A stretch of 64,000 nt of DNA from Escherichia phage HK3, in sequence record PP526765. One strand, 5' to 3'. Shown here piece after piece: positions 6,917 through 33,232 of the stretch. Position 1 is the first letter of the stretch. Each line of letters opens with the position of its first letter. Made by a program: the position numbers and the translations under genes. A model generated the notes under the pieces. The model was not told where the DNA came from and ran no database searches. It saw nothing but the letters and a program-made list of their open reading frames with translations.

Positions 6917-8332
6917 ATGAGCAAGTTATTTAAACATGCGCACCTTCATGCAGGTCGAACTGAAAATGGTGCTGTAAACCATACTTCATCAATGTCTGCT
7001 CTGGTAGACTTCTACAAAGCCGCTGGTTCAAGCCGTAGCAATGTAGAAATCTTACCAGACCTGTTCTACAAAGCTTTGCGTGAGGATGTTGATGTTGCAG
7101 TTCGTATTTTACTGCATATGCGAGATGTACGAGAAGGTATGGGCGAGCGTAAAGCTTTCCGAACTGTTTTGCTTCAAGCGATTGAAGATAAGGTTTTAGA
7201 ACCTACACAGGTTCTTCGCATTATGGATAAGATTGCAGAACTTGGTCGTTTTGATGACTTCAAAATCTTTGTAGGTACTCGTTTTGAGACAGACGCCTTC
7301 AAACATTTAGAAGCAGCATTACTAGACCCTGCAACAGCAGGTTTAGCAGCTAAGTGGTTGCCACGAGTAAAACCACGCCACAAACAGTTTGTAAAACGTT
7401 TCTGCAAGTTTGCAAACTTAAGTGAGAAGGAGTATCGCACACTGTTGTCTGCACTATCTGATACGGTTGAGCAAAAAATCTCTGCTAATGAGTTTGGTAA
7501 GATTGACTACAGCAAGATTCCTTCACTAGCTGCTGCACGTTACCAAAAACTCTTTAACCGTAAAGATGGTGAACGTTACAAAGCTTACATCGAGTCGCTC
7601 TCAAAGGGTGAGGCTAAGATTAATGCTGGTGCTGTTTACCCATACGATGTGATTAAATCTATTAAGTATGGTAATGCAGATGTTGCTAATGAGCAGTGGA
7701 AAGCACTTCCAAACTGGATGGCAGAAGGTGAAAACATCTTGTGTATGACTGATGTTTCAAGCTCAATGTCTTGGGTGAATCTTGGTTCAATCACTGCCCT
7801 TGATATTGGTGTATCACTTGCTTTGTATGTAGCAGAACGCAATACTGGTTGCTTTAAAGATGAGTTAATGGTTTACTCAACAAACCCTCACTTCATTGAA
7901 CTGAGTGGTGATTTACGAAACCGTCATCGTCAGGTGATGCGTCACGTTGAATATGGCTCAACTAACTTACAAGCAGCTTTTGACCGTATTCTTGAAATAG
8001 GTAAGAGAAACAACTTGACTCAGAAAGATATGCCAAGTAAGCTTATTATCTTCTCTGATATGGAGTTTAATCAGGTTGATGGTGCAAATGGTCATACAAA
8101 CTTTGAAGCAATTCAGAGTAAGTACAAAAAAGCCGGATACGAAATGCCACAACTAGTATTCTGGTACTTAGCAAACCGTAATGGTACTTGCGAAGTATCT
8201 GTTAAGGATAATGGTGTAGCAATGGTATCAGGGTTCTCTCCAGCCACTTTAAAAGCTCTACTTGGTGGTGAGAAGTTTGACCCAATCAGCGTAATGCTCA
8301 AAGCAGTAATGATTGACCGTTATATCTGGTAA
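6917..8332 (+). CDS. vWA-domain protein with Ro60-like architecture (alpha-helical N-domain + C-terminal vWA)
   Basis: 471 aa; MIDAS-like DVSSSMS ... GSTN ... IIFSDME in C-terminal half; helical N-terminal about 270 aa; lies immediately upstream of tRNA array. Confidence 0.6.
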   Translation: MSKLFKHAHLHAGRTENGAVNHTSSMSALVDFYKAAGSSRSNVEILPDLFYKALREDVDVAVRILLHMRDVREGMGERKAFRTVLLQAIEDKVLEPTQVLRIMDKIAELGRFDDFKIFVGTRFETDAFKHLEAALLDPATAGLAAKWLPRVKPRHKQFVKRFCKFANLSEKEYRTLLSALSDTVEQKISANEFGKIDYSKIPSLAAARYQKLFNRKDGERYKAYIESLSKGEAKINAGAVYPYDVIKSIKYGNADVANEQWKALPNWMAEGENILCMTDVSSSMSWVNLGSITALDIGVSLALYVAERNTGCFKDELMVYSTNPHFIELSGDLRNRHRQVMRHVEYGSTNLQAAFDRILEIGKRNNLTQKDMPSKLIIFSDMEFNQVDGANGHTNFEAIQSKYKKAGYEMPQLVFWYLANRNGTCEVSVKDNGVAMVSGFSPATLKALLGGEKFDPISVMLKAVMIDRYIW

Positions 8333-8350
8333 AAAGTTTTAAAAAGGGTA

Positions 8351-8379
8351 TTGACAATGTGTTTGATACCCTTTAATAT
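8351..8379 (+). promoter_or_regulatory. sigma70-like promoter (TTGACA-17-TAATAT) for tRNA array
   Basis: consensus -35 and near-consensus -10 with 17-nt spacer; flanked by inverted repeat AAGGGTAT / ATACCCTT. Confidence 0.65.
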
Positions 8380-8442
8380 GTTCTACATAGAAACGAGATG
8401 AGAGCTTTTCTAAGATACTGAAAAATATTTTAAAAAAGTTCT

Positions 8443-8471
8443 TGACAACCACTAAAAAATAATGTTAAAGT
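8443..8471 (+). promoter_or_regulatory. sigma70-like promoter (TTGACA-17-TAAAGT)
   Basis: TTGACA 8443-8448, TAAAGT 8466-8471; overlapping hairpin CCACT...AGTGG. Confidence 0.5.
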
Positions 8472-8497
8472 GGTTACATAGAGTTTGAAAAGTTTAT

Positions 8498-8574
8498 CTC
8501 TGTTTAGCTCAGCTTGGTAGAGCGTTCCGTTTGGGGCGGTAAGGCCGGAGGTTCAAGTCCTCCAACAGAGACCA
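8498..8574 (+). tRNA. tRNA-Pro (anticodon UGG)
   Basis: manual fold: acceptor CTCTGTT/AACAGAG, D-loop AGCTTGGTA, anticodon loop TTTGGGG, T-arm GGAGG-TTCAAGT-CCTCC, encoded CCA. Confidence 0.75.
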
Positions 8575-8581
8575 AATTAAT

Positions 8582-8659
8582 GTTCCAGTAGACAAAATGG
8601 TATAGTCACCACTCTTTCAAAGTGGATATTTGAGGGTTCAAATCCCTTCTGGAACGCCA
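8582..8659 (+). tRNA. tRNA-Glu (anticodon UUC)
   Basis: manual fold: acceptor GTTCCAG/CTGGAAC, anticodon stem CCACT/AGTGG loop CTTTCAA, T-loop TTCAAAT, CCA. Confidence 0.7.
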
Positions 8660-8666
8660 GTTTTGA

Positions 8667-8740
8667 CAGAAGACCAATTACAGCAAACTTAATCTTATTC
8701 ATCTGAAGGTAAATCGGACAAAGAAGAGATTTGGTCTGGT
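8667..8740 (+). ncRNA. inter-tRNA structured element a (conserved terminal helix)
   Basis: 5' CAGAAGACCAATTACAGCAA ... 3' TTGGTCTGG; terminal 7-bp helix AGACCAA/TTGGTCT. Confidence 0.45.
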
Positions 8741-8750
8741 CATTAAGAAT

Positions 8751-8827
8751 TGCGGGTATAGAGAAAGGGCGTCTCACATGTCTCATTAGCATGGTATCGG
8801 CAGGTTCGACTCCTGCACCCGCCTCCA
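8751..8827 (+). tRNA. tRNA-Met (anticodon CAU; 1:72 mismatch)
   Basis: manual fold: anticodon stem CATGT/GCATG loop CTCATTA, T-arm GCAGG-TTCGACT-CCTGC, acceptor TGCGGGT/ACCCGCC with U1xC72 mismatch, CCA. Confidence 0.6.
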
Positions 8828-8833
8828 AATTTA

Positions 8834-8897
8834 CAGAAGACCGTTTACAGCAATATTTATTAAATTTTTAGCGGAAAAATTGAAAGATACGGTCTGG
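8834..8897 (+). ncRNA. inter-tRNA structured element b
   Basis: 5' CAGAAGACCGTTTACAGCAA ... 3' ACGGTCTGG; helix AGACCGT/ACGGTCT (compensatory to element a); internal hairpin AATTTTT-AGCGG-AAAAATT. Confidence 0.45.
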
Positions 8898-8910
8898 TAA
8901 TACTAAACAT

Positions 8911-8987
8911 GGTTAGGAAGCACATAAGGTATGTGCGGTCGCCTGTTAAGCGAATGGCACAGGGTTCGAATCCCTGACTAACCGCCA
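8911..8987 (+). tRNA. tRNA-Asn (anticodon GUU)
   Basis: manual fold: acceptor GGTTAGG/ACTAACC, anticodon loop CTGTTAA, T-arm CAGGG-TTCGAAT-CCCTG, CCA. Confidence 0.7.
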
Positions 8988-9058
8988 AATTTAGGAGAGA
9001 AGCGATTGCTCACCGATTTGTAAGGTGCAAGTCCTTAGCCTGAATAGAATAATAAAAT

Positions 9059-9145
9059 GTGTCGTTATCCCGTAGATGGTAGCGGTGGGGACTGTAAATC
9101 CCTTGTCATTGAGACTCGGTAGGTTCGACTCCTACACGGCACACC
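9059..9145 (+). tRNA. tRNA-Tyr (anticodon GUA), long variable arm
   Basis: manual fold: acceptor GTGTCGT/ACGGCAC, anticodon stem GGGGA/TCCCT loop CTGTAAA, 15-nt variable arm, T-arm GTAGG-TTCGACT-CCTAC, CCA. Confidence 0.7.
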
Positions 9146-9207
9146 AATTTTGAGAGGGCTATTTAGCCCCTCCCTTAAAGAGTTCTTACGAGTACCCTTT
9201 AAAGGAG

Positions 9208-9281
9208 CAGAAGACCAAATACAGCAAGTTACTTAAAATTTCAAGCCAATTCAATTTTGAAAAATTTAAAACTTGGTCTGG
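9208..9281 (+). ncRNA. inter-tRNA structured element c
   Basis: 5' CAGAAGACCAAATACAGCAA ... 3' TTGGTCTGG; same terminal helix. Confidence 0.45.
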
Positions 9282-9294
9282 CTCAACAAATTTA

Positions 9295-9425
9295 CAGAAG
9301 ACCGTTTACAGCAAAACTTAAACAATCTATTTCTCGGTAAAGAAAAGGTGAAGGTTCGATTCCTTCACTCGGCAGATGTCGAGTTGGTGTAATGGTAGCA
9401 CTTAAGATGATAAACAACGGTCTGG
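9295..9425 (+). ncRNA. candidate Y-RNA-like (YrlA-like) RNA: terminal helix enclosing circularly permuted tRNA-like domain
   Basis: 5' CAGAAGACCGTTTACAGCAA ... 3' ACGGTCTGG helix; inside: T-arm GTGAAGG-TTCGATT-CCTTCAC (9348-9368), closed acceptor-like hairpin ACTCGGC-AGAT-GTCGAGT (9367-9384), D-arm GTGT-AATGGTA-GCAC (9387-9401); no anticodon arm. Confidence 0.5.
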
Positions 9426-9576
9426 TAATTATCTTTGCAGTAGCTTATGTGGCTAATTATATCGTCCCATGAGTGCCGATGAATTTCCTTAGCATGATTC
9501 TAGATTAGCTTAATAGGAAATGACTCTACAGACCCTTTAGCAAGGTCTGCGTAGGTTACTGCAAAGATAATTTAAT

Positions 9577-9652
9577 AGAAGTGTAGCAGAATGGTGATGC
9601 GGCAGACTTTTAATCTGATAGGTGATGGGTTCGAATCCCTCCACTTCTACCA
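9577..9652 (+). tRNA. tRNA-Lys (anticodon UUU)
   Basis: manual fold: acceptor AGAAGTG/CACTTCT, anticodon stem GCAGA/TCTGA loop CTTTTAA, CCA; T-stem weak (3 bp); homologous to Lys-CUU gene with compensatory changes. Confidence 0.6.
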
Positions 9653-9656
9653 ATAT

Positions 9657-9733
9657 GGTTCAGTCGCAGATAAGGTAATGCAGGGGTCTCATAAGCCCTA
9701 TGAATGTGGGTTCGATTCCCATCTGAGCCTCCA
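9657..9733 (+). tRNA. tRNA with anticodon CAU (Met or Ile-lysidine type)
   Basis: manual fold: acceptor GGTTCAG/CTGAGCC, anticodon stem GGGGT/GCCCT loop CTCATAA, T-arm GTGGG-TTCGATT-CCCAT, CCA. Confidence 0.65.
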
Positions 9734-9735
9734 AT

Positions 9736-9811
9736 GCTGTGAAAGCACATATGGATGTGCATTCGGCTGATAACCGAAAGGAAGAAGGTTCGAATCCTTC
9801 TCACAGTACCA
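9736..9811 (+). tRNA. tRNA-Ile (anticodon GAU)
   Basis: manual fold: acceptor GCTGTGA/TCACAGT, D-arm GCAC-ATATGGAT-GTGC, anticodon stem TTCGG/CCGAA loop CTGATAA, T-arm GAAGG-TTCGAAT-CCTTC, CCA. Confidence 0.8.
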
Positions 9812-9826
9812 ATTTCAATAAAGTTG

Positions 9827-9855
9827 TTGACATTGAGATGTGACCACTTTATAGT
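9827..9855 (+). promoter_or_regulatory. sigma70-like promoter (TTGACA-17-TATAGT) internal to tRNA region
   Basis: TTGACA 9827-9832, TATAGT 9850-9855. Confidence 0.6.
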
Positions 9856-10058
9856 AACCTTAGTTTTCGTTGCGTAGCGTCTATTTTGCAAATTTAAAAT
9901 AAATGCAAACGACAATGTTTTTCTGGCAGTAGCTTGATAGGCTAAACACCAGTGAGGTCTTCCAATCCCTCATCAAAGAATTTGGCGTACTAGCCCACGG
10001 TATGATTAATAAGGTGGGCATCTTTAAGGGTTTTTTAAGAGAGTCTTTAAAGATTAAT

Positions 10059-10135
10059 GCACCCTTAGTTCAACTGGACAGAACAAATGACTTCTAATCA
10101 TTAGGTTACAGGTTCGAATCCTGTAGGGTGTGCCA
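10059..10135 (+). tRNA. tRNA-Arg (anticodon UCU)
   Basis: manual fold: acceptor GCACCCT/AGGGTGT, D-arm GTTC-AACTGGACA-GAAC, anticodon stem AATGA/TCATT loop CTTCTAA, T-arm ACAGG-TTCGAAT-CCTGT, CCA. Confidence 0.8.
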
Positions 10136-10277
10136 AATAGTTAGCAGATTGCTTAGACGACCTTATCGGGTCTCCGTGTAGGGAGGTGGTCTGTATCTCA
10201 TGTTTTCCAGAACATGTAAATAATCTGAGAAGGGGCTTTACAGTGTTGAGATAATACGGTAAGCTTCGAATTATAGT

Positions 10278-10360
10278 ATGGGACGATGTTAAGACTCTAA
10301 GGCATGAGCAACGGCTTCCAACACCGTTTCAAAGGGATTCAACTCCTCCGTCCCATGCCA
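10278..10360 (+). tRNA. atypical tRNA-like gene (possible tRNA-Trp, anticodon CCA) with extra nucleotides between acceptor and D-arm
   Basis: perfect 7-bp acceptor ATGGGAC/GTCCCAT + G + CCA; anticodon-like loop TTCCAAC; D-region 8 nt longer than canonical; weak T-stem. Confidence 0.3.
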
Positions 10361-10373
10361 AAGTCTTATTAGG

Positions 10374-10461
10374 GGTAGGTAGCGGCTAATGGTAGCCAAA
10401 CTGTCTTGAAAACAGTTGCCACTGTAGAGATACGGTGAGGGTTCGACTCCTTTACTTACCG
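10374..10461 (+). tRNA. tRNA-Ser (anticodon UGA), long variable arm
   Basis: manual fold: acceptor GGTAGGT/ACTTACC, anticodon stem ACTGT/ACAGT loop CTTGAAA, about 20-nt variable arm, T-arm GAGGG-TTCGACT-CCTTT. Confidence 0.7.
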
Positions 10462-10617
10462 CCTAATAAGATTTAAAGCCAAGCTTCATTCGGATGTTGC
10501 TTTGGTATCCCTCGTGTATTGTCGTACACACTGATAAAGCACCTAGTAGGTGTCACGGAGAAGAGATAATATCAAGCTCTCCAAAGGTTCTAGTCACCGG
10601 ATTAAACAAGACTATGC

Positions 10618-10639
10618 AAAGACCTGTTTAGGTCTTTTT
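10618..10639 (+). terminator. terminator-like hairpin within tRNA region
   Basis: AAAGACC-TGTTTA-GGTCTTT followed by TTT. Confidence 0.3.
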
Positions 10640-10718
10640 AGAGGGCTTCTAAGGTTATTACAGCTTGTTGTGGAACCTTGTTGCTTAGGTTCTTAGAAGT
10701 TCTCTAAAAAGATTTAAT

Positions 10719-10795
10719 GCACCTATAGCCCAACTGGTAGAGGCAGCAGACTTAGAATCTGCTCAGTGTGAGTTCGAATCTCTCTAGGTGTACCA
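10719..10795 (+). tRNA. tRNA with anticodon UAG (Leu by code) but short variable arm
   Basis: manual fold: acceptor GCACCTA/TAGGTGT, anticodon stem GCAGA/TCTGC loop CTTAGAA, 5-nt variable loop, T-loop TTCGAAT, A73, CCA. Confidence 0.55.
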
Positions 10796-10802
10796 AATTA
10801 AT

Positions 10803-10878
10803 GCAGGTGTAGCAAAATGGTTATGCGGCTGACTCTTAATCAGTAAGACGATGGTTTCAATTCCCTCCACCTGTACCA
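10803..10878 (+). tRNA. tRNA-Lys (anticodon CUU)
   Basis: manual fold: acceptor GCAGGTG/CACCTGT, anticodon stem GCTGA/TCAGT loop CTCTTAA, CCA; paralog of Lys-UUU with compensatory stem changes. Confidence 0.6.
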
Positions 10879-10884
10879 GACATT

Positions 10885-10960
10885 GGGGATGTAGTTTACA
10901 TGGTTAAAACATAAGTTTTGCAAACTTAAGTACAGGGTTCAATTCCCTGCTTCTCCACCA
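10885..10960 (+). tRNA. tRNA-Ala (anticodon UGC)
   Basis: manual fold: acceptor GGGGATG/CTTCTCC with G3-U70 wobble (Ala identity), D-arm GTTT-ACATGGTTA-AAAC, anticodon stem TAAGT/ACTTA loop TTTGCAA, T-arm CAGGG-TTCAATT-CCCTG, CCA. Confidence 0.7.
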
Positions 10961-10966
10961 ATTAGT

Positions 10967-11041
10967 GCATCCATAGTTTAAACGGGAAAATTACAGTCTT
11001 CCAAACTGAGGTTGAGGGTTCGATTCCCTCTGGATGCTCCA
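10967..11041 (+). tRNA. tRNA-Gly (anticodon UCC)
   Basis: manual fold: acceptor GCATCCA/TGGATGC, anticodon loop CTTCCAA, T-arm GAGGG-TTCGATT-CCCTC, CCA. Confidence 0.7.
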
Positions 11042-11047
11042 AATAAT

Positions 11048-11124
11048 GCTGCTTTCGTATAATTGGCTATTACACATCCCTTGTAAGGATGGAAATGCAG
11101 GTTCGAGTCCTGTGAGCAGCACCA
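11048..11124 (+). tRNA. tRNA-Thr (anticodon UGU)
   Basis: manual fold: acceptor GCTGCTT/GAGCAGC, anticodon stem CATCC/GGATG loop CTTGTAA, T-arm GCAGG-TTCGAGT-CCTGT, CCA. Confidence 0.75.
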
Positions 11125-11219
11125 ATTCAGAGGTCAAGTGAAAGACCGCTGGTGTCAACTGAAGACCGTAACAAATTCCACGGAGTTGAGTTAGCGGCAC
11201 AACTTCAGACCTCTTTCAT

Positions 11220-11294
11220 ACTCGCTTAGTTTATATGGTAAAACACCACCCTTACAAGATGAAGAAAAAGGTTCAAGTCCTTTAGTGAGTACCA
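11220..11294 (+). tRNA. tRNA-like gene, possible tRNA-Val (anticodon UAC); weak anticodon stem
   Basis: acceptor ACTCGCT/AGTGAGT, D-arm GTTT-ATATGGTA-AAAC, T-arm AAAGG-TTCAAGT-CCTTT, CCA; anticodon stem only 3/5 paired. Confidence 0.4.
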
Positions 11295-11295
11295 T

Positions 11296-11373
11296 GTTCC
11301 AATATCCCAATTGGCAGAGGATGCAAGCTCAAACCTTGTACTAGTGACGGTTCGAATCCGTCTTGGAACACCA
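11296..11373 (+). tRNA. tRNA with anticodon CAA (Leu by code) but short variable arm
   Basis: manual fold: acceptor GTTCCAA/TTGGAAC, Leu-like D-loop AATTGGCAGAG, anticodon stem GCAAG/CTTGT loop CTCAAAC, 6-nt variable loop, T-arm GACGG-TTCGAAT-CCGTC, A73, CCA. Confidence 0.55.
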
Positions 11374-11487
11374 ATTTTGGGAGAGCACTATGAGTGATAA
11401 GTCAATAGCAAAAAAGTTTAGAGCGTCATACCTAAACAGACGTAAAAACAAAGATTGTGAAAAACTGTATGGTGTTCTTGTAGGTAA

Positions 11488-11563
11488 GCAGGATTAGTTC
11501 AAATGGATAGAGCAGCAGTCTACGAAGCTGTTAATAGGGGTTCGAATCCCTTATCCTGCGCCA
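11488..11563 (+). tRNA. tRNA-Arg (anticodon ACG)
   Basis: manual fold: acceptor GCAGGAT/ATCCTGC, D-arm GTTC-AAATGGATA-GAGC, anticodon stem GCAGT/GCTGT loop CTACGAA, T-arm AGGGG-TTCGAAT-CCCTT, CCA. Confidence 0.75.
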
Positions 11564-11582
11564 ATTTTAAGAGGCTATTTAG

Positions 11583-12140
11583 ATGAGATATTTGAAGTAT
11601 GCTTCATGGATTTTCCTAGCTTTGTTAGACCCATTGGCAGCAACCTTAGCAGTTATCTTAGCACCTTTTGTAGTTCCATTCTACAGTGAGAAGAAAGGGC
11701 ACTTACCTTTCGGCTTCAGATGGATGGAGACATATGACAACCCAATTGATGGTGATAAAGGTCATGTTGAACGATGGGCTAAGATTAGAAAGATTGGTAA
11801 GCTTGGTGTCTATATGCAGAGAGTCGGTTGGCTCTGGAGAAACAAAGCTTATAACTTCTCTTACCATGTGTTAGGAAGAGATGTAAAAGATGTTACTAAG
11901 TGGAAAGGTAATATCAACGTAAGCTCTGACCCTGAAGATAATCAGACAGGTTATCTCCTAATGTGGAACAGTAATGCTTGGGGATTATTCGCTTTTATCC
12001 CATCAATTAAAGTCTTTGGTAAACAATTCTACTGGAGAATTTATATTGGGTGGAAACTAAAAAGTGTTGTCCCAGAAGAAAGAGCATTCTCAAGGGAAAG
12101 AGTTATGTTGGCATTCTTTATTCATCCACTGAGAAAGTAA
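11583..12140 (+). CDS. hypothetical membrane-anchored protein embedded in tRNA array
   Basis: 185 aa, ATG with AAGAGG upstream; N-terminal hydrophobic segment ASWIFLALLDPLAATLAVILAPFVVPF. Confidence 0.5.
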   Translation: MRYLKYASWIFLALLDPLAATLAVILAPFVVPFYSEKKGHLPFGFRWMETYDNPIDGDKGHVERWAKIRKIGKLGVYMQRVGWLWRNKAYNFSYHVLGRDVKDVTKWKGNINVSSDPEDNQTGYLLMWNSNAWGLFAFIPSIKVFGKQFYWRIYIGWKLKSVVPEERAFSRERVMLAFFIHPLRK

Positions 12141-12148
12141 AGATTTAA

Positions 12149-12224
12149 AGGGGATTAGTTTACAAGGTTAAAACCTCGGTCTTTGAAATCGAAGAAGTTG
12201 GTTCAATTCCAACATCCCCCGCCA
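12149..12224 (+). tRNA. tRNA-Gln (anticodon UUG)
   Basis: manual fold: acceptor AGGGGAT/ATCCCCC (A1xC72), D-arm GTTT-ACAAGGTTA-AAAC, anticodon stem TCGGT/ATCGA loop CTTTGAA, T-arm GTTGG-TTCAATT-CCAAC, CCA. Confidence 0.65.
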
Positions 12225-12226
12225 AT

Positions 12227-12305
12227 GCTCCATTACTCCAATTGGCAGAGAGGCCAGACTTAAAATCTGTGTTATGTATCGGTTCGAATCCGATATGGAG
12301 TACCA
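12227..12305 (+). tRNA. tRNA with anticodon UAA (Leu by code) but short variable arm
   Basis: manual fold: acceptor GCTCCAT/ATGGAGT, Leu-like D-loop AATTGGCAGAG, anticodon loop CTTAAAA, 7-nt variable loop, T-arm ATCGG-TTCGAAT-CCGAT, A73, CCA. Confidence 0.55.
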
Positions 12306-12310
12306 AATTT

Positions 12311-12386
12311 AGCGGTATAGCATAACTGGCAATGCAACAGTCTCTGAAGCTGTCTTATTAAGGTTCAAATCCTTATGCCGCTGCCA
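12311..12386 (+). tRNA. tRNA-Gln (anticodon CUG)
   Basis: manual fold: acceptor AGCGGTA/TGCCGCT, D-arm GCAT-AACTGGCA-ATGC, anticodon stem ACAGT/GCTGT loop CTCTGAA, T-arm TAAGG-TTCAAAT-CCTTA, CCA. Confidence 0.7.
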
Positions 12387-12417
12387 CTTCTAAGGATTCT
12401 TACGAGAGTCCTTAAAT

Positions 12418-12493
12418 GTGGCCTTATCATAAACGGTAATGACCCATGCTGTGAACATGGTCTATACGGGTTCAAATCCCGTAGGTCACCCCA
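12418..12493 (+). tRNA. tRNA-His (anticodon GUG)
   Basis: manual fold: acceptor GTGGCCT/AGGTCAC, D-arm TCAT-AAACGGTA-ATGA, anticodon stem CCATG/CATGG loop CTGTGAA, T-arm ACGGG-TTCAAAT-CCCGT, C73, CCA. Confidence 0.75.
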
Positions 12494-12498
12494 ATTTA

Positions 12499-12575
12499 TA
12501 GTCCAAGTAGCTTATATGGTTAAAGCGCGTGTCTGAAAAACATGAGAAGAGGGTTCAAATCCCACTGGATTACCA
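12499..12575 (+). tRNA. tRNA-Phe (anticodon GAA); acceptor/D junction atypical
   Basis: D-arm GCTT-ATATGGTTA-AAGC, anticodon stem CGTGT/ACATG loop CTGAAAA, T-loop TTCAAAT; acceptor TAGTCCA/TGGATTA leaves 4 nt before D-stem. Confidence 0.5.
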
Positions 12576-12591
12576 ATTTCAAAGGTGCTTA

Positions 12592-13326
12592 ATGAAAGAG
12601 ATGACAGAACAAGGTAAGGAGATTTTTAATCTCTTAAAAACTGGTAAAGGGTTTTCTAACCCCCTTATTACTGGTGCAGCAGTTCTCGGTGGAACCGTAG
12701 CTGCCTCTACATCACTTGTAAGCTCTATTAGCTCTGTAACAGACCCTACAATAAAGGATAAACTTATTGCTGCTGGACTTACAACAGTTCTGCTTAACAG
12801 CTTTACAACGAGTCTGACAAGCACTACAGCAACTACTAAGACCCTAACAGACTATGGTCAAAAATCTATTGATGAGTTTTCATCACGTATGCAGGTAGCA
12901 AAGGGATACTCCAATGTTATGGGTGCAGTAGGAGAACAAGTTGGTTGTACACCATTTAGTGGTATTATGGGTGTTGCTACAGAGTATGGTCAAAAAGCTA
13001 TGGATACAATTAACAGCACACTAGATGGCGTTAATGATGTATTAAGCGACTTACAGGATGCTATTGATAAAGGTCTTAATACTATTTCTGATTTAGCTAA
13101 CCAAGCTGTTAGTAAGATTAATGAAGGTATCTCAAAGATTACAGCTTATGCAGATGAAGTTGTGCAGATGATTGAAGAAGAAGCTGCCCTTATTGCAGAG
13201 TACCTTAAAACGAATATCAATGGGTTCTTAGCAGGTATCTTACCAGACTGGTTTGATGATGCTTGTAAAACTGGTGTGATTGACACTATTGCAACACCAG
13301 AAATGAAGAACGCATTACAGAAATAA
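12592..13326 (+). CDS. hypothetical Ser/Thr-rich protein
   Basis: ATG at 12592 with AAAGGTG upstream (track ORF from 12529 would overlap tRNA-Phe); 244 aa. Confidence 0.5.
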   Translation: MKEMTEQGKEIFNLLKTGKGFSNPLITGAAVLGGTVAASTSLVSSISSVTDPTIKDKLIAAGLTTVLLNSFTTSLTSTTATTKTLTDYGQKSIDEFSSRMQVAKGYSNVMGAVGEQVGCTPFSGIMGVATEYGQKAMDTINSTLDGVNDVLSDLQDAIDKGLNTISDLANQAVSKINEGISKITAYADEVVQMIEEEAALIAEYLKTNINGFLAGILPDWFDDACKTGVIDTIATPEMKNALQK

Positions 13327-13327
13327 C

Positions 13328-13420
13328 GGAAGATTAACCCTAAAAGGTAAGGGAGCAGTTTGCTAAACTGCCAGTAGCTGAGAAATCGGTGTACCAGTTC
13401 AAGTCTGGTATCTTCCTCCA
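13328..13420 (+). tRNA. tRNA-Ser (anticodon GCU), long variable arm
   Basis: manual fold: acceptor GGAAGAT/ATCTTCC, anticodon stem GCAGT/ACTGC loop TTGCTAA, long variable arm, T-arm ACCAG-TTCAAGT-CTGGT, CCA. Confidence 0.7.
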
Positions 13421-13424
13421 ATTT

Positions 13425-13500
13425 GAATCCGTGACAGAAATGGCTATGTACCTGTCTGCAAAACAGGTTTATAAGGGTTCGAGTCCCTTCGGATTCTCCA
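13425..13500 (+). tRNA. tRNA-Cys (anticodon GCA)
   Basis: manual fold: acceptor GAATCCG/CGGATTC, anticodon stem CCTGT/ACAGG loop CTGCAAA, T-arm AAGGG-TTCGAGT-CCCTT, U73 (Cys identity), CCA. Confidence 0.75.
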
Positions 13501-15562: not shown

Positions 15563-17029
15563 ATGGCAGATATTACAGAAACACAAGAAAGCTTACCACC
15601 ATTTAGAATGGGTGAAGTAGGTTCTTTGGGTCTGAAGGTTAAGAATGGAAGAATCTATGAAGAACCTCGTCAGGCACTAAGGTTCCCCGAAAGTATTAAA
15701 ACTTTCCAATTAATGATGCGTGACCCTGCTGTAGCAGCATCTGTAAATATTATTAAGATGTTTGTCAGAAAAGTCAACTGGAGATTCGTACCTCCAAAGG
15801 GAAAAGAGCAAGACCCTAAAATGCTTGAAAGAGCAGACTTCTTTAATTCTTTAATGGATGACATGGAGCATGATTGGGCAGATTTTATTAACTCTGTAAT
15901 GTCATTCTGCACTTATGGGTTCTGTGTTAATGAGAAGGTTTATAAGAAACGTCAGGGTAAGAAAGGAAAGTACCAGTCTAAGTTTGATGATGGTCTAATT
16001 GGATGGGCTAAGTTACCAATCAGAAACCAATCAACGCTTGATAAGTGGTACTTTGACGAAGACTTTAGAAAAGTTACTGGTGTTAGACAGAATCTGAGAA
16101 ATGTTTCACATATTGCTGGAGCAATTAATCTTGGAGAAAGACCACTAACAAGAAAACTCCCACGAGCTAAATTCATGCTGTTTAAGTATGATGATGAGTA
16201 TGGTAACCCAGAAGGTCGTTCACCATTACTTAACGCTTATGTACCGTGGAAGTATAAAGTACAGATTGAAGAGTATGAAGCTGTTGGTGTTTCAAGAGAC
16301 TTAGTAGGTATGCCAAAGATTGGTTTACCACCAGATTATCTGGATGAAAATGCAGAACCTGAAAAGAAAGCTTTCGTACAATACTGCAAAACTGTTGTTA
16401 ATGATATGATTGCTAATGACAGAGCAGGTTTAATCTGGCCTAGATATATCGACCCAGATACTAAAGAGGATATCTTTGAGTTCTCATTAGTTTCTAGACA
16501 GGGTGCTAAAGCATATGACACAGGCTCTATTATTGACAGATATTCCAAGCAAATTATGATGGCATTTATGTCAGATGTTCTTGCTATGGGTCAGTCAAAA
16601 TACGGTTCATTCTCTCTTGCAGATTCTAAGACAAGCTTATTAGCAATGTCAGTAGATATTCTGCTGAAGCAAATTAAGAACGTAATTAACCGTGATTTAG
16701 TTGCACAGACTTATGCTCTTAATATGTGGGACGATGAAGAACATGTACAAATCACATATGATGATATCGAAACTCCAGACCTTGAAGTAATTGGTTCTTA
16801 CATTCAGAAGACTGTTGCAGTAGGTGCTTTGGAAGTTGACAAAGAGCTATCTAATAAACTTAGAGAGCATATTGGTCTTCCTCCTGCTGATGAGTCTCAG
16901 CCAGTATCTGAAAAGCTTTCTCCAAATACCCAAAGCCGTTCAGGAGATGGCTATAAGACCGCTGGAGAAGGTACTGCAAAGACACCTTCAGCGAAAGACC
17001 CAAGCACAGCAAATAAGGCAAATAAATAA
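15563..17029 (+). CDS. portal protein
   Basis: about 490-aa protein immediately after terminase; size/position typical of portal; ATG 15563 with AGGTGA RBS. Confidence 0.65.
   Translation: MADITETQESLPPFRMGEVGSLGLKVKNGRIYEEPRQALRFPESIKTFQLMMRDPAVAASVNIIKMFVRKVNWRFVPPKGKEQDPKMLERADFFNSLMDDMEHDWADFINSVMSFCTYGFCVNEKVYKKRQGKKGKYQSKFDDGLIGWAKLPIRNQSTLDKWYFDEDFRKVTGVRQNLRNVSHIAGAINLGERPLTRKLPRAKFMLFKYDDEYGNPEGRSPLLNAYVPWKYKVQIEEYEAVGVSRDLVGMPKIGLPPDYLDENAEPEKKAFVQYCKTVVNDMIANDRAGLIWPRYIDPDTKEDIFEFSLVSRQGAKAYDTGSIIDRYSKQIMMAFMSDVLAMGQSKYGSFSLADSKTSLLAMSVDILLKQIKNVINRDLVAQTYALNMWDDEEHVQITYDDIETPDLEVIGSYIQKTVAVGALEVDKELSNKLREHIGLPPADESQPVSEKLSPNTQSRSGDGYKTAGEGTAKTPSAKDPSTANKANK

Positions 17030-25201: not shown

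Positions 25202-33232
<8,031 letters not shown>

What the first reader, a model, noticed from the sequence alone, without database searches (positions are those of the whole stretch)
8667..9281. Family of inter-tRNA elements with conserved termini and compensatory changes in the terminal helix
Four 64-131 nt elements (8667-8740, 8834-8897, 9208-9281, 9295-9425) begin CAGAAGACC-NN-(T/A)TACAGCAA and end NN-GGTCTGG. The NN pairs covary (AA/TT in two copies, GT/AC in two), preserving a 7-bp helix, which argues for selection on RNA structure rather than chance. Interiors differ. They may be Y-RNA paralogs, stable small RNAs processed with the tRNAs, or miniature inverted-repeat elements.
Basis: seen in the sequence. 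Interest (0 to 1): 0.7.

Follow-up and report, generated by a model that had tools for sequence, protein, structure and literature searches.

The report
Phage Y-like RNAs beside Ro-like gene
Four small structured RNA genes tucked between the tRNA genes of a Felix O1-type phage look like the missing RNA partners (Y-RNA-like) of the Ro60-shaped protein encoded just upstream. The same RNA signature sits next to this protein in very different phages, so a long-guessed phage RNA-protein particle can now be tested directly.

Summary
The 20-nt 5' signature occurs exactly four times in 64 kb, all on the + strand (0.17 expected), and each copy closes with a complementary 3' arm. The window is a Felixounavirus. 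The four elements are syntenic in about 30 relatives, with termini 96-100% conserved and interiors 68-85%.

The gene immediately upstream (6917-8332; Pfam DUF2828+DUF7788) is predicted to fold like Ro60; its 11 best PDB matches are all Ro60/TROVE. Next to homologues of this gene in Klebsiella, Mycobacterium, Listeria, Staphylococcus, Enterococcus, Bacillus, Campylobacter and metagenomic phages I find the same design on the gene's strand. It is a 7-9 bp terminal helix of entirely different sequence (48 distinct helices), then about 2 nt, then an invariant (A/U)CAGCAA, with a G after the 3' arm.

Element 4 and its counterparts also carry a permuted tRNA-like module (T arm, closed acceptor stem, D arm), as in bacterial YrlA. 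They score below Rfam's YrlA threshold and lack the YrlA/Y-RNA Ro-binding motif.

Verdict: these are Y-RNA-like partner RNAs of a divergent Ro-fold protein, a new variant of a known kind. Binding and expression are inferred, not shown.

The parts
6917..8332 (+). Gene for a 471-aa protein predicted to have the Ro60 fold (HEAT-repeat ring plus vWA domain). It is the presumed protein partner of the RNAs and the orthologue of Bas63 gp130.
   Evidence: Pfam finds DUF2828, DUF7788 and a weak VWA_2 match, with no TROVE match even at E<=10. The AF2 model has pLDDT 88. The 11 best Foldseek PDB matches are all Ro60/TROVE over the full length, e.g. 2i91_A with TMq 0.67 and E 4.5e-8. It belongs to PHROG 850 'RNA-binding protein'. 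Homologues in mycobacteriophages are annotated 'Ro-like RNA binding protein'. bas63_0130 has the same size and position.
8351..8379 (+). Promoter-like site (TTGACA-17-TAATAT) ahead of the tRNA / Y-like RNA array.
   Evidence: Consensus scan, 10 of 12 matches. Function is inferred only.
8442..8471 (+). Second promoter-like site (TTGACA-18-TAAAGT, with TG before the second hexamer), 27 nt before tRNA-Pro.
   Evidence: Consensus scan, 10 of 12 matches. Function is inferred only.
8667..8739 (+). E1, a short Y-like RNA. Helix 8671-8677 pairs with 8731-8737; linker UU; ACAGCAA at 8680-8686; GG at 8738-8739.
   Evidence: Syntenic in Felix-like contigs, where two alternative interiors occur but the termini are conserved.
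8834..8897 (+). E2, a short Y-like RNA. Helix 8838-8844 pairs with 8889-8895; ACAGCAA at 8847-8853; GG at 8896-8897.
   Evidence: (z -2.1).
9208..9281 (+). E3, a short Y-like RNA. Helix 9212-9218 pairs with 9273-9279; ACAGCAA at 9221-9227 (UCAGCAA in many relatives); GG at 9280-9281.
9295..9425 (+). E4, the long YrlA-like RNA. The terminal helix 9299-9306 pairs with 9416-9423, and ACAGCAA lies at 9308-9314. An anticodon-stem-like helix pairs 9317-9320 with 9403-9406, and a variable-arm-like hairpin spans 9325-9349. The tRNA-like parts are the T arm (9350-9366), a 7-bp acceptor-like stem closed by an AGAU loop (9367-9384), and the D arm (9386-9402).
   Evidence: MFE -34.2 kcal/mol, z -2.7. Felix-like relatives carry three versions of the closed acceptor stem with compensatory changes. 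The consensus of 18 long forms gives the same four helices, with 20 of 23 pairs showing double changes. Rfam sees only a tRNA 3'-half-like partial match and no YrlA match.
9427..9572 (+). Adjacent 146-nt structured element, a possible fifth partner RNA (uncertain). It has a closing stem of about 23 bp and an internal hairpin, cuACAGACC-cuuUAGCAA-GGUCUGcguag, that echoes the family signature.
   Evidence: MFE -51.9 kcal/mol, z -5.85. Two sequence versions in relatives show compensatory changes in both the long stem and the hairpin. Membership of the family is not shown.

Best explanation
E1-E4 are genes for small non-coding RNAs that work like Y RNAs. They are most likely the RNA partners of the Ro60-fold ring protein encoded directly upstream (6917-8332).

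Proposed mechanism:
(1) The elements are transcribed with the tRNA array from the sigma-70-like promoters at 8351 and 8442. They are released when the flanking tRNAs are processed and are trimmed back to the terminal helix. This step is inferred.
(2) The protein recognises the constant module: the base of the terminal helix (5'-AGR...YCU-3' followed by G) plus the single-stranded UU-(A/U)CAGCAA that follows the 5' strand. This is inferred from conservation and from analogy with Ro60-Y RNA and Rsr-YrlA.
(3) The variable module specifies what the particle touches. In E4 it is a permuted tRNA mimic (T arm, closed acceptor stem, D arm), which could recruit or decoy tRNA-binding enzymes or nucleases. 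E1-E3 are short forms analogous to YrlB. This is inferred.
(4) The particle modulates RNA decay or repair during infection and contributes to counter-defence. The orthologous protein Bas63 gp130 is reported to counter the ppl defence system.

What is shown here: the structure-level conservation, the Ro60-like predicted fold, and the strict genetic linkage across phages. Binding, RNA ends and function are not shown.
For: - **Real repeat family.** There are four copies on one strand against 0.17 expected.
- **Conserved termini.** Orthologues in about 30 Felixounavirus-like contigs keep the termini (column identity 0.96-1.00) while the interiors drift or are replaced (0.68-0.85).
- **RNA-level pairing.** The A->G variants CAGAAGGCC keep G.U pairing with GGTCTGG, which works only in + strand RNA.
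- **Ro60-like neighbour.** AF2 model pLDDT 88; the 11 best PDB matches are all full-length Ro60/TROVE. Independent reports say the same for Bas63 gp130 (10.1101/2024.10.10.617714) and Listeria phage CKA15_055 (PMC12282133).
- **Same design in distant phages.** It sits beside the homologous gene, on the gene's strand, in Klebsiella FBKp34, Mycobacterium Samty, Listeria LMSP-25, Staphylococcus S-CoN_Ph16, Campylobacter CP81, Enterococcus EFDG1, Bacillus Nate, Sinorhizobium phiM7 and IMG/VR contigs.
- **Fixed-geometry test.** I asked whether the 7 nt at -9..-3 from ACAGCAA have a perfect Watson-Crick partner 12-210 nt downstream. This held at 52 of 101 same-strand sites near the gene, 0 of 17 sites inside the CDS and 0 of 33 on the opposite strand.
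- **Covariation.** There are 48 distinct helices, 3-4 Watson-Crick pair types at each of the 7 positions, and G after the 3' arm in 43 of 48. The covariation score is 0.968 against 0.21 for shuffles.
- **Linkage.** A strict element is present in 38 of 74 loci on the gene strand and 0 of 74 on the other strand.
- **Whole-genome specificity.** In phage Samty (75 kb) there are exactly 3 hits, all 43-300 nt after the Ro-like gene and 21 kb from its tRNA cluster.
- **Long forms.** On a structure-agnostic MAFFT alignment, 88.5% of cells pair against 64% for shuffles; the covariation score is 0.629 against 0.224 (0 of 500 shuffles reach it); 20 of 23 pairs show double changes.
- **Resemblance to YrlA.** Long forms of other phages give sub-threshold YrlA matches, 34-45 bits with E 8e-7 to 1e-3.
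Against: - There is no expression, end-mapping or binding data for these RNAs in any Felix-like phage.
- The conserved motif (CAGCAA) resembles no known Ro-binding site (YrlA GNCGAAN0-1G; metazoan GGUCCGA; phiLo CGAA).
- The protein is not a TROVE-family member by sequence, so "Ro-like" rests on a predicted fold.
- E4 gets no YrlA match at all.
- 19 of 74 homologous loci show no element within the flanks even with a relaxed motif.
- The 3' arms used for the short-form statistics were found by complementarity, so the percentage paired is circular. Only the negative controls carry weight there.
- A covariance model of the constant module could not bridge the variable loops.
Confidence: 0.7

Rival explanations
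1. The elements are stable or regulatory small RNAs that act on their own, for example as decoys or sponges for a host nuclease, a defence protein or a tRNA-modifying enzyme. Under this reading they do not bind the neighbouring Ro-fold protein, and the linkage reflects a shared pathway or co-regulation only.
For: The covariation and motif conservation prove a structured RNA but do not identify its ligand. CAGCAA matches no known Ro-binding motif (PMC4201824). The tRNA-like module could itself be the functional decoy.
Against: The linkage is very tight and strand-specific across unrelated phage families, often within tens of nucleotides of the gene. The constant module (helix base plus motif) is shared by RNAs with unrelated variable parts, which is the expected pattern for a common protein-docking site. 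The parallel with Ro60/Y RNA and Rsr/YrlA-YrlB is close.
Confidence: 0.17
2. The elements are cis-acting spacer hairpins of the polycistronic tRNA precursor. They would serve as processing, punctuation or stability signals for RNase E, RNase P or RNase III and have no function after excision.
For: In this window all four lie 6-13 nt from tRNA boundaries. DUF2828 loci are often next to tRNA clusters.
Against: In Mycobacterium phage Samty and Staphylococcus phage S-CoN_Ph16 the elements follow the Ro-like gene, while the tRNA cluster is 21 kb away or only a single tRNA is nearby. Most tRNA junctions in this window have no such element. A processing hairpin would not need an invariant single-stranded heptamer or a tRNA-mimic insert with covarying T, acceptor and D stems.
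Confidence: 0.07
3. The elements are miniature inverted-repeat or other mobile DNA elements, or DNA-level inverted repeats bound by a DNA-binding protein.
For: The termini AGACCNN/NNGGTCT are inverted repeats, and there are several copies with different interiors.
Against: All copies are in one orientation and at fixed syntenic positions in about 30 genomes. No dispersed copies occur in the other 62 kb. The asymmetric motif lies on one strand only. The G.U pairs are valid only in + strand RNA. Helix sequences differ completely between phages while pairing is kept, which DNA-site recognition would not allow. I saw no target-site duplications on reading the flanks.
Confidence: 0.02

Closest known systems
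Bacterial YrlA / YrlB Y RNAs with Rsr (Ro60) of Salmonella Typhimurium and Mycobacterium smegmatis (Chen et al. 2014, PMC4201824; Rfam RF02553)
   Same: They are encoded next to, and on the same strand as, a Ro60-type ring protein. The 5' and 3' ends pair in a terminal stem, with a conserved motif just after the 5' strand. One long RNA per genome carries a permuted tRNA-like domain (T arm, acceptor stem closed by a loop, D arm, V and AS arms), accompanied by shorter RNAs that lack it. Long forms in related phages give sub-threshold YrlA matches.
   Different: The conserved motif is (A/U)CAGCAA, not GNCGAAN0-1G. The partner protein belongs to Pfam DUF2828/DUF7788, not TROVE. E4 gets no YrlA match, and relatives reach only 34-45 bits against a gathering score of 69. 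Here the genes are embedded in a phage tRNA array, and there are 3-4 copies per genome.
Thermus phage phiLo phiRo60 with Yrl1/Yrl2 (Hu et al. 2025, PMC12135203; PDB 9KOP, 9L5Y)
   Same: This is a phage-encoded Ro60-fold protein with small stem-bulge-stem RNAs encoded beside it. 9kop and 9l5y are among the best structural matches to the window protein.
   Different: The phiLo RNAs carry the canonical CGAA motif and the protein is a recognisable Ro60 homologue. In that system binding and a PNPase complex were shown experimentally, whereas nothing has been shown for the present family.
Bas63 (Escherichia phage JohannRWettstein) gp130, proposed to be Ro60-like and to counter the ppl defence system (PhageMaP preprint 10.1101/2024.10.10.617714)
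   Same: bas63_0130 is the orthologue of the window gene and sits in the same position before the tRNA array. The authors already suspected that Y RNAs exist there.
   Different: They suggested that some of the annotated tRNA genes might be the Y RNAs. No RNA, motif or structure was identified. The candidates found here are the unannotated spacers between the tRNAs, partly covered by spurious minus-strand CDS such as bas63_0137 and bas63_0138.
Highly transcribed unannotated regions upstream of the Rsr-like CKA15_055 in Listeria phage CKA15 (PMC12282133)
   Same: The protein is a homologue, and three CAGCAA-type elements lie 74-338 nt upstream of it in the related phage LMSP-25. The authors speculated that Y RNAs are present.
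   Different: No sequence or structure definition was given. Their most transcribed region (about 490 nt) probably corresponds to the near-threshold ROOL RNA match I see 1 kb upstream, not to these elements. I could not establish how their regions map onto the elements.
Phage T4 species 1 and species 2 stable RNAs (rnaC/rnaD) encoded in the T4 tRNA cluster (from my own knowledge, not checked here)
   Same: They are small stable RNAs of unknown function that are co-transcribed and co-processed with phage tRNAs.
   Different: No Ro-like partner and no CAGCAA signature are known for them. I made no comparison.

Membership tests
Y RNA / YrlA (Ro60-associated ncRNA) | Encoded within about 4 kb of, and on the same strand as, the Ro60-type protein gene | tested here: met
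   E1-E4 lie 335-1093 nt downstream of 6917-8332 on the + strand. The same linkage holds in 38-55 of 74 homologous loci, against 0-10 on the opposite strand.
Y RNA / YrlA (Ro60-associated ncRNA) | The partner protein is a Ro60 orthologue (TROVE domain plus vWA) | tested here: inconclusive
   By fold the answer is yes: the 11 best PDB matches are all Ro60/TROVE, with TMq up to 0.67. By sequence it is no: Pfam gives DUF2828/DUF7788 and no TROVE match at E<=10, and a profile search gives only a marginal match to the Ro60 vWA domain, E 0.43.
Y RNA / YrlA (Ro60-associated ncRNA) | The 5' and 3' ends pair in a terminal stem | tested here: met
   The helix is 7-8 bp in all four copies, with full covariation across 48 distinct helices and in the long-form alignment.
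Y RNA / YrlA (Ro60-associated ncRNA) | Conserved Ro-binding sequence: GNCGAAN0-1G (YrlA/YrlB) or the GGUCCGA bulged helix (metazoa) | tested here: not met
   No such motif is present in E1-E4. The invariant motif is (A/U)CAGCAA, preceded by UU. The reference motif is taken from PMC4201824.
Y RNA / YrlA (Ro60-associated ncRNA) | At least one RNA per genome has a tRNA-like domain (T arm, acceptor stem closed by a loop, D arm) | tested here: met
   In E4 these parts span 9350-9402. The consensus of 18 long forms has covarying T, acceptor and D helices.
Y RNA / YrlA (Ro60-associated ncRNA) | Scores at or above the Rfam RF02553 gathering threshold (69 bits) | tested here: not met
   E4 gets no YrlA match even at E<=10. 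Counterparts in other phages score 34-45 bits.
Y RNA / YrlA (Ro60-associated ncRNA) | Physically bound and stabilised by the Ro protein | not testable with these tools
   This needs RIP/CLIP, EMSA or a structure.
tRNA | Cloverleaf with an open acceptor stem, an anticodon arm and a 3' CCA end; detected by ARAGORN or Rfam RF00005 | tested here: not met
   ARAGORN calls none of E1-E4. For E4, RF00005 gives only a truncated 3'-half match of 15.6 bits against a threshold of 29. The acceptor stem is closed by a loop.
MITE / mobile inverted-repeat element | Terminal inverted repeats with target-site duplications, dispersed copies in both orientations, and related interiors | tested here: not met
   The elements have one orientation, are clustered and syntenic, have unrelated interiors, and show no copies elsewhere in 64 kb.

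The most novel reading that the evidence does not exclude
A previously undefined RNA-protein particle that is widespread in phages. It would consist of a divergent Ro60-fold ring (DUF2828/DUF7788), found in at least 709 records of the searched phage collection from Gram-negative, Gram-positive and actinobacterial hosts, and its own class of Y-like RNAs. These RNAs are defined by a covarying terminal helix plus UU-(A/U)CAGCAA and include tRNA mimics. The particle would be a general counter-defence or RNA-surveillance device, for example against ppl or tRNA-targeting nucleases. In some phages the same motif in the gene's own 5' UTR would let the protein autoregulate its translation.
Probability: 0.45. 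Interest if true: 0.85.

Novelty: new variant of a known kind. Interest (0 to 1): 0.72.

Why it matters
Ro60-Y RNA particles are known in animals, some bacteria and a few phages, but only for canonical TROVE proteins and CGAA-type RNAs. The DUF2828 Ro-fold protein is much more common in phages: 709 phage records in the searched collection and more than 2,800 protein clusters. It has been reported to counter a defence system (Bas63 gp130), to be packaged in virions (CKA15_055) and to be toxic when overexpressed (LeBron gp53).

Two groups have guessed that it has Y-RNA partners without finding them. A concrete RNA signature, with coordinates in many phages and an obvious mutational design (motif, helix, compensatory changes), makes that question directly testable. 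It also corrects mis-annotated ORFs and adds a new tRNA-mimic class to phage biology.

Tried and rejected
- **Rfam.** Gathering and E-value scans of the window found only tRNAs plus noise for E1-E4, such as Dictyostelium class I RNA at E of about 4.
- **Exact-pattern scan of IMG/VR.** The Felix-type 5' signature recovered only Felixounavirus-like contigs plus six chance matches without a 3' arm (L031, L032, L034-L037). The lineage-specific termini are therefore not the family signature.
- **Covariance model of the constant module.** The model (R1, built from 36-nt trimmed constructs) could not bridge the 20-110 nt variable loops and returned only motif-level matches at E>0.1. I considered a second model with longer loops and dropped it for the same architectural reason.
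- **Sequence search of the protein against PDB.** The single sequence gave nothing relevant and the profile gave only a marginal Ro60 match. Only the fold comparison was decisive.
- **Extra ACAGCAA sites.** Those at 17006 and 17625 (preceded by AGACC) and the geometry hit at 31987-32032 lack a convincing partner arm or a trailing G, and are in line with the chance hits expected among the 24 ACAGCAA sites in the window. I treat them as chance.
- **Literature.** Supplementary tables of Chen et al. 2014, Burroughs & Aravind 2016 and Sim et al. 2020 were not available. I therefore cannot exclude that a few of the mycobacteriophage long forms were listed there as YrlA candidates.
Full report
**Observation.** The window is a Felix O1-type phage (Felixounavirus): 259 phage records match 8340-9600 at 80-98% identity. 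A + strand array of 25 tRNA genes runs from 8498 to 13500. All four are on the + strand, nothing else matches at up to three mismatches, and 0.17 matches are expected by chance. Each copy ends NN-GGTCTGG. The helix is AGACCAA/TTGGTCT in E1 and E3 and AGACCGT/ACGGTCT in E2 and E4 (8 bp in E4); the interiors are unrelated.

**Conservation in close relatives.** An exact-pattern scan of IMG/VR returned about 30 Felixounavirus-like contigs in which the four elements keep the same positions between the same tRNAs. Among distinct orthologues, the first 20 and last 9 columns are 96-100% identical, while the interiors are 68-85% identical. E1 and E2 exist with wholly different interiors between the same termini. 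Variants with CAGAAGGCC keep a G.U pair with GGTCTGG, which is possible only in + strand RNA. In E4 the closed stem occurs in three versions that differ by compensatory changes: ACTCGGC/GTCGAGT, ACACG/CGTGT and ACCCTTC/GAAGGGT.

**The neighbouring gene.**
- The ORF at 6917-8332 ends 335 nt before E1. Pfam assigns DUF2828, DUF7788 and a weak vWA match, and finds no TROVE match even at E<=10.
- An AlphaFold2 model built on 39 homologues (pLDDT 88, pTM 0.88) was searched against the PDB. The 11 best matches are all Ro60/TROVE structures aligned over the full length: X. laevis Ro60 2i91_A (TMq 0.67, E 4.5e-8), human Ro60, D. radiodurans Rsr and Thermus phage phiLo Ro60. Generic vWA domains follow at TMq of about 0.22.
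- Homologues occur in 709 phage records. They are annotated 'Ro-like RNA binding protein' in mycobacteriophages and 'RNA-binding protein' elsewhere.
- The orthologue in phage Bas63 (bas63_0130) was reported to resemble Ro60 and to counter the ppl defence system. The authors guessed that some tRNA genes downstream might be Y RNAs.
- For Listeria phage CKA15 the homologue was linked by HHpred to Rsr, was found in virions, and highly transcribed unannotated regions upstream were guessed to be Y RNAs.
- Neither study identified an RNA.

**E4 is a tRNA mimic of the YrlA type.** Its minimum-energy fold (-34.2 kcal/mol, z -2.7) has these parts:
- the terminal helix;
- a short anticodon-stem-like helix;
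- a variable-arm-like hairpin;
- a T arm (GAAGG-UUCGAUU-CCUUC);
- a 7-bp acceptor-like stem closed by an AGAU loop;
- a D arm (GUGU-AAUGGUA-GCAC).

This is the circularly permuted tRNA layout described for bacterial YrlA (PMC4201824). Neither ARAGORN nor Rfam calls it a tRNA or YrlA.

**The family extends far beyond this phage.** I read the DNA around homologues of the protein in distant phages and found the same design on the gene's strand, immediately upstream or downstream.

| Phage | Copies | Position and notes |
|---|---|---|
| Klebsiella FBKp34 | at least 3 | downstream; one long form |
| Mycobacterium Samty | 3 | downstream; one long form |
| Listeria LMSP-25 | 3 | upstream |
| Staphylococcus S-CoN_Ph16 | 3 | downstream |
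| Campylobacter CP81 | 2 | upstream |
| Enterococcus EFDG1 | 3 | upstream; two long forms |
| Bacillus Nate | 4 | in and after the tRNA array |
| Sinorhizobium phiM7 | 2 candidates | upstream; long-form candidate has an ACAGCAC variant |
| many IMG/VR contigs | varies | up- or downstream |

The helix sequence differs completely from phage to phage. What is constant is the geometry and a heptamer: 7-9 bp, then about 2 nt (UU in 23 of 48), then ACAGCAA (UCAGCAA is a genuine variant), with the outer pairs 5'-(A/U)GR...YC(U/A)-3' and a G after the 3' arm (43 of 48). The Felix-specific CAGAAGACC/GGTCTGG is therefore only the local version of the helix.

**Statistics with controls.**
- *Fixed-geometry test.* I required the 7 nt at -9..-3 from ACAGCAA to have a perfect Watson-Crick partner 12-210 nt downstream. 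This held at 52 of 101 same-strand sites near the gene, 0 of 17 sites inside the CDS and 0 of 33 on the opposite strand.
- *Helix diversity.* The 48 distinct helices show 3-4 Watson-Crick pair types at each of the seven positions. On trimmed constructs the covariation score is 0.968, against 0.21 for shuffles and at most 0.15 for slid registers. The percentage paired is circular there, because the 3' arms were chosen by complementarity.
- *Linkage.* A strict element is present on the gene strand in 38 of 74 non-Felix loci and on the other strand in none. With a one-mismatch motif the figures are 55 and 10.
- *Whole genomes.* Phage Samty (75 kb) has exactly three hits, all 43-300 nt after the Ro-like gene and 21 kb from its tRNA cluster. 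The Staphylococcus phage (88 kb) has the three clustered elements plus three weak scattered hits in coding sequence. In the 64-kb window the scan returns E1-E4 plus one probable chance hit at 31987.
- *Long forms.* Eighteen long forms were aligned by MAFFT without reference to structure. RNAalifold recovers the terminal helix, T arm, closed acceptor stem and D arm, and 20 of 23 pairs show double changes. 88.5% of cells pair against 64% for shuffles, and the covariation score is 0.629 against 0.224 (0 of 500 shuffles reach it; slid registers at most 0.18).
- *Rfam.* The YrlA model gives sub-threshold matches to long forms in other phages (34-45 bits, E 8e-7 to 1e-3, gathering score 69).

**Interpretation.** These features together are those of Y RNAs paired with a Ro-type protein, including the YrlA/YrlB-like split into long and short forms:
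- a constant docking module (helix base plus single-stranded CAGCAA);
- variable effector modules, one of them a tRNA mimic;
- several paralogues per genome;
- strict same-strand linkage to a Ro60-fold gene.

I therefore take E1-E4 to be the RNA partners of the upstream protein. They are probably made by co-transcription with the tRNAs from the promoter-like sites at 8351 and 8442 and released by tRNA processing. The structure, the linkage and the predicted fold are shown here. Binding, RNA ends, stability and function are inferred.

The function is most plausibly modulation of RNA decay or repair, and counter-defence, for three reasons:
- Bas63 gp130 is reported to counter ppl.
- Ro60-Y RNA recruits PNPase in bacteria and in phage phiLo.
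- RNA ligase, polynucleotide kinase or RtcB genes co-occur in several of these phages.

**Rivals.**
- *Autonomous small RNAs that do not bind the protein.* This remains possible, because the motif resembles no known Ro site.
- *tRNA-precursor processing hairpins.* This fits poorly, because the elements follow the protein gene and not the tRNAs in Samty and the Staphylococcus phage, and because a tRNA-mimic insert and an invariant heptamer would be unnecessary.
- *MITEs or DNA-binding sites.* These are excluded by orientation, synteny, the strand-specific G.U pairs and complete helix turnover.

**Comparison and novelty.** The closest known systems are bacterial Rsr with YrlA/YrlB and phage phiLo Ro60 with Yrl1/2. 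The present RNAs work like them in design but fail three membership criteria:
- the Ro-binding motif is not met;
- the Rfam threshold is not met;
- a TROVE partner by sequence is not met (the fold match counts only as inconclusive).

They are absent from Rfam 15, and I found no description in the searchable literature. Some key references could not be read. I rate the finding a new variant of a known kind.

**Limits.** There are no transcript data for this phage. The protein's Ro-likeness is a prediction, although three independent lines agree. A quarter to a half of homologous loci show no element within the fetched flanks. The covariance-model route failed for architectural reasons.

Noticed in passing
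window 9427-9572 (+): Directly after E4 lies a 146-nt element with a very stable fold (-51.9 kcal/mol, z -5.85) closed by a stem of about 23 bp. Felix-like relatives carry two sequence versions with compensatory changes in the stem. An internal hairpin, ACAGACC-cuuUAGCAA-GGUCUG (AAACC/GGUUU in some relatives), echoes the E-family signature. It may be another partner RNA or a different ncRNA.
   Followed up: partly
window 9905-9940 (+), within 9860-10058: Downstream of a strong promoter-like site (9827-9855) lies GCA AAC GAC AAT GTT TTT CTG GCA GTA GCT TGA TAG, which reads ANDNVFLAVA** and looks like a tmRNA tag (E. coli: ANDENYALAA). It is exact in 32 Felix-like loci. Divergent relatives show GAC>GAT (synonymous), GTT>GCT (V>A) and TGA>TAA. 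Rfam tmRNA and tmRNA_permuted give weak matches that align AUAAAUGCAAACGA...GCUUGA. Neither ARAGORN nor I found a tRNA-like domain, and tRNA-Arg follows at 10059.
   Followed up: partly
window 9147-9207: Felix O1 and Bas63 have a tRNA-Asp between tRNA-Tyr and E3. This window has only a 61-nt spacer there, and ARAGORN finds no tRNA-Asp anywhere in the array.
   Followed up: partly
L121 928-1479 (Listeria phage LMSP-25): There is a near-threshold ROOL RNA match (88.5 bits, gathering score 99.1) about 1 kb upstream of the Ro-like gene, among tRNAs. It probably corresponds to the about 490-nt 'most transcribed, non-coding' region 26,236-26,727 reported for the related phage CKA15.
   Followed up: partly
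L040 2964-3010; L056, L057, L062, L067, L099, L102 (just before the DUF2828 start codon): In Vibrio Schizotequatrovirus and some metagenomic phages a helix plus ACAGCAA motif sits in the 5' UTR of the Ro-like gene itself. In the Vibrio (Schizotequatrovirus) case the 3' arm overlaps the start codon, and in L099 it ends immediately before the ribosome-binding site. This suggests translational autoregulation by the protein.
   Followed up: partly
L039 5003-5116 (Klebsiella phage FBKp34): A 114-nt gene annotated 'tRNA-Asp' carries an insertion between the D arm and the anticodon arm. The insertion contains a hairpin ACTTCT/AGAAGT followed by TTTACAGCA, so the family motif appears inside a tRNA.
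   Followed up: no
L001 2738-2989, 3224-3388 and 3533-3763; L127 2807-3081; L038 4535-4729; L122 3971-4060: Deposited annotations place small hypothetical CDS over these RNA elements, several of them on the opposite strand: Felix O1 ORF91/92/94, bas63_0137/0138, SEA_SAMTY_55 and CoNPh16_CDS0153. They are probably spurious.
   Followed up: partly
window 11583-12140 and 12529-13326 (+): Two protein genes of unknown function (Pfam DUF7338 and DUF7217) are embedded inside the tRNA array on the same strand.
   Followed up: no
window 31987-32032 (+): This is the only other site in 64 kb that fits the strict geometry (CAGTATA-ct-ACAGCAA...TATACTG), but it has no trailing G. With 24 ACAGCAA sites in the window, one chance hit is expected.
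   Followed up: no
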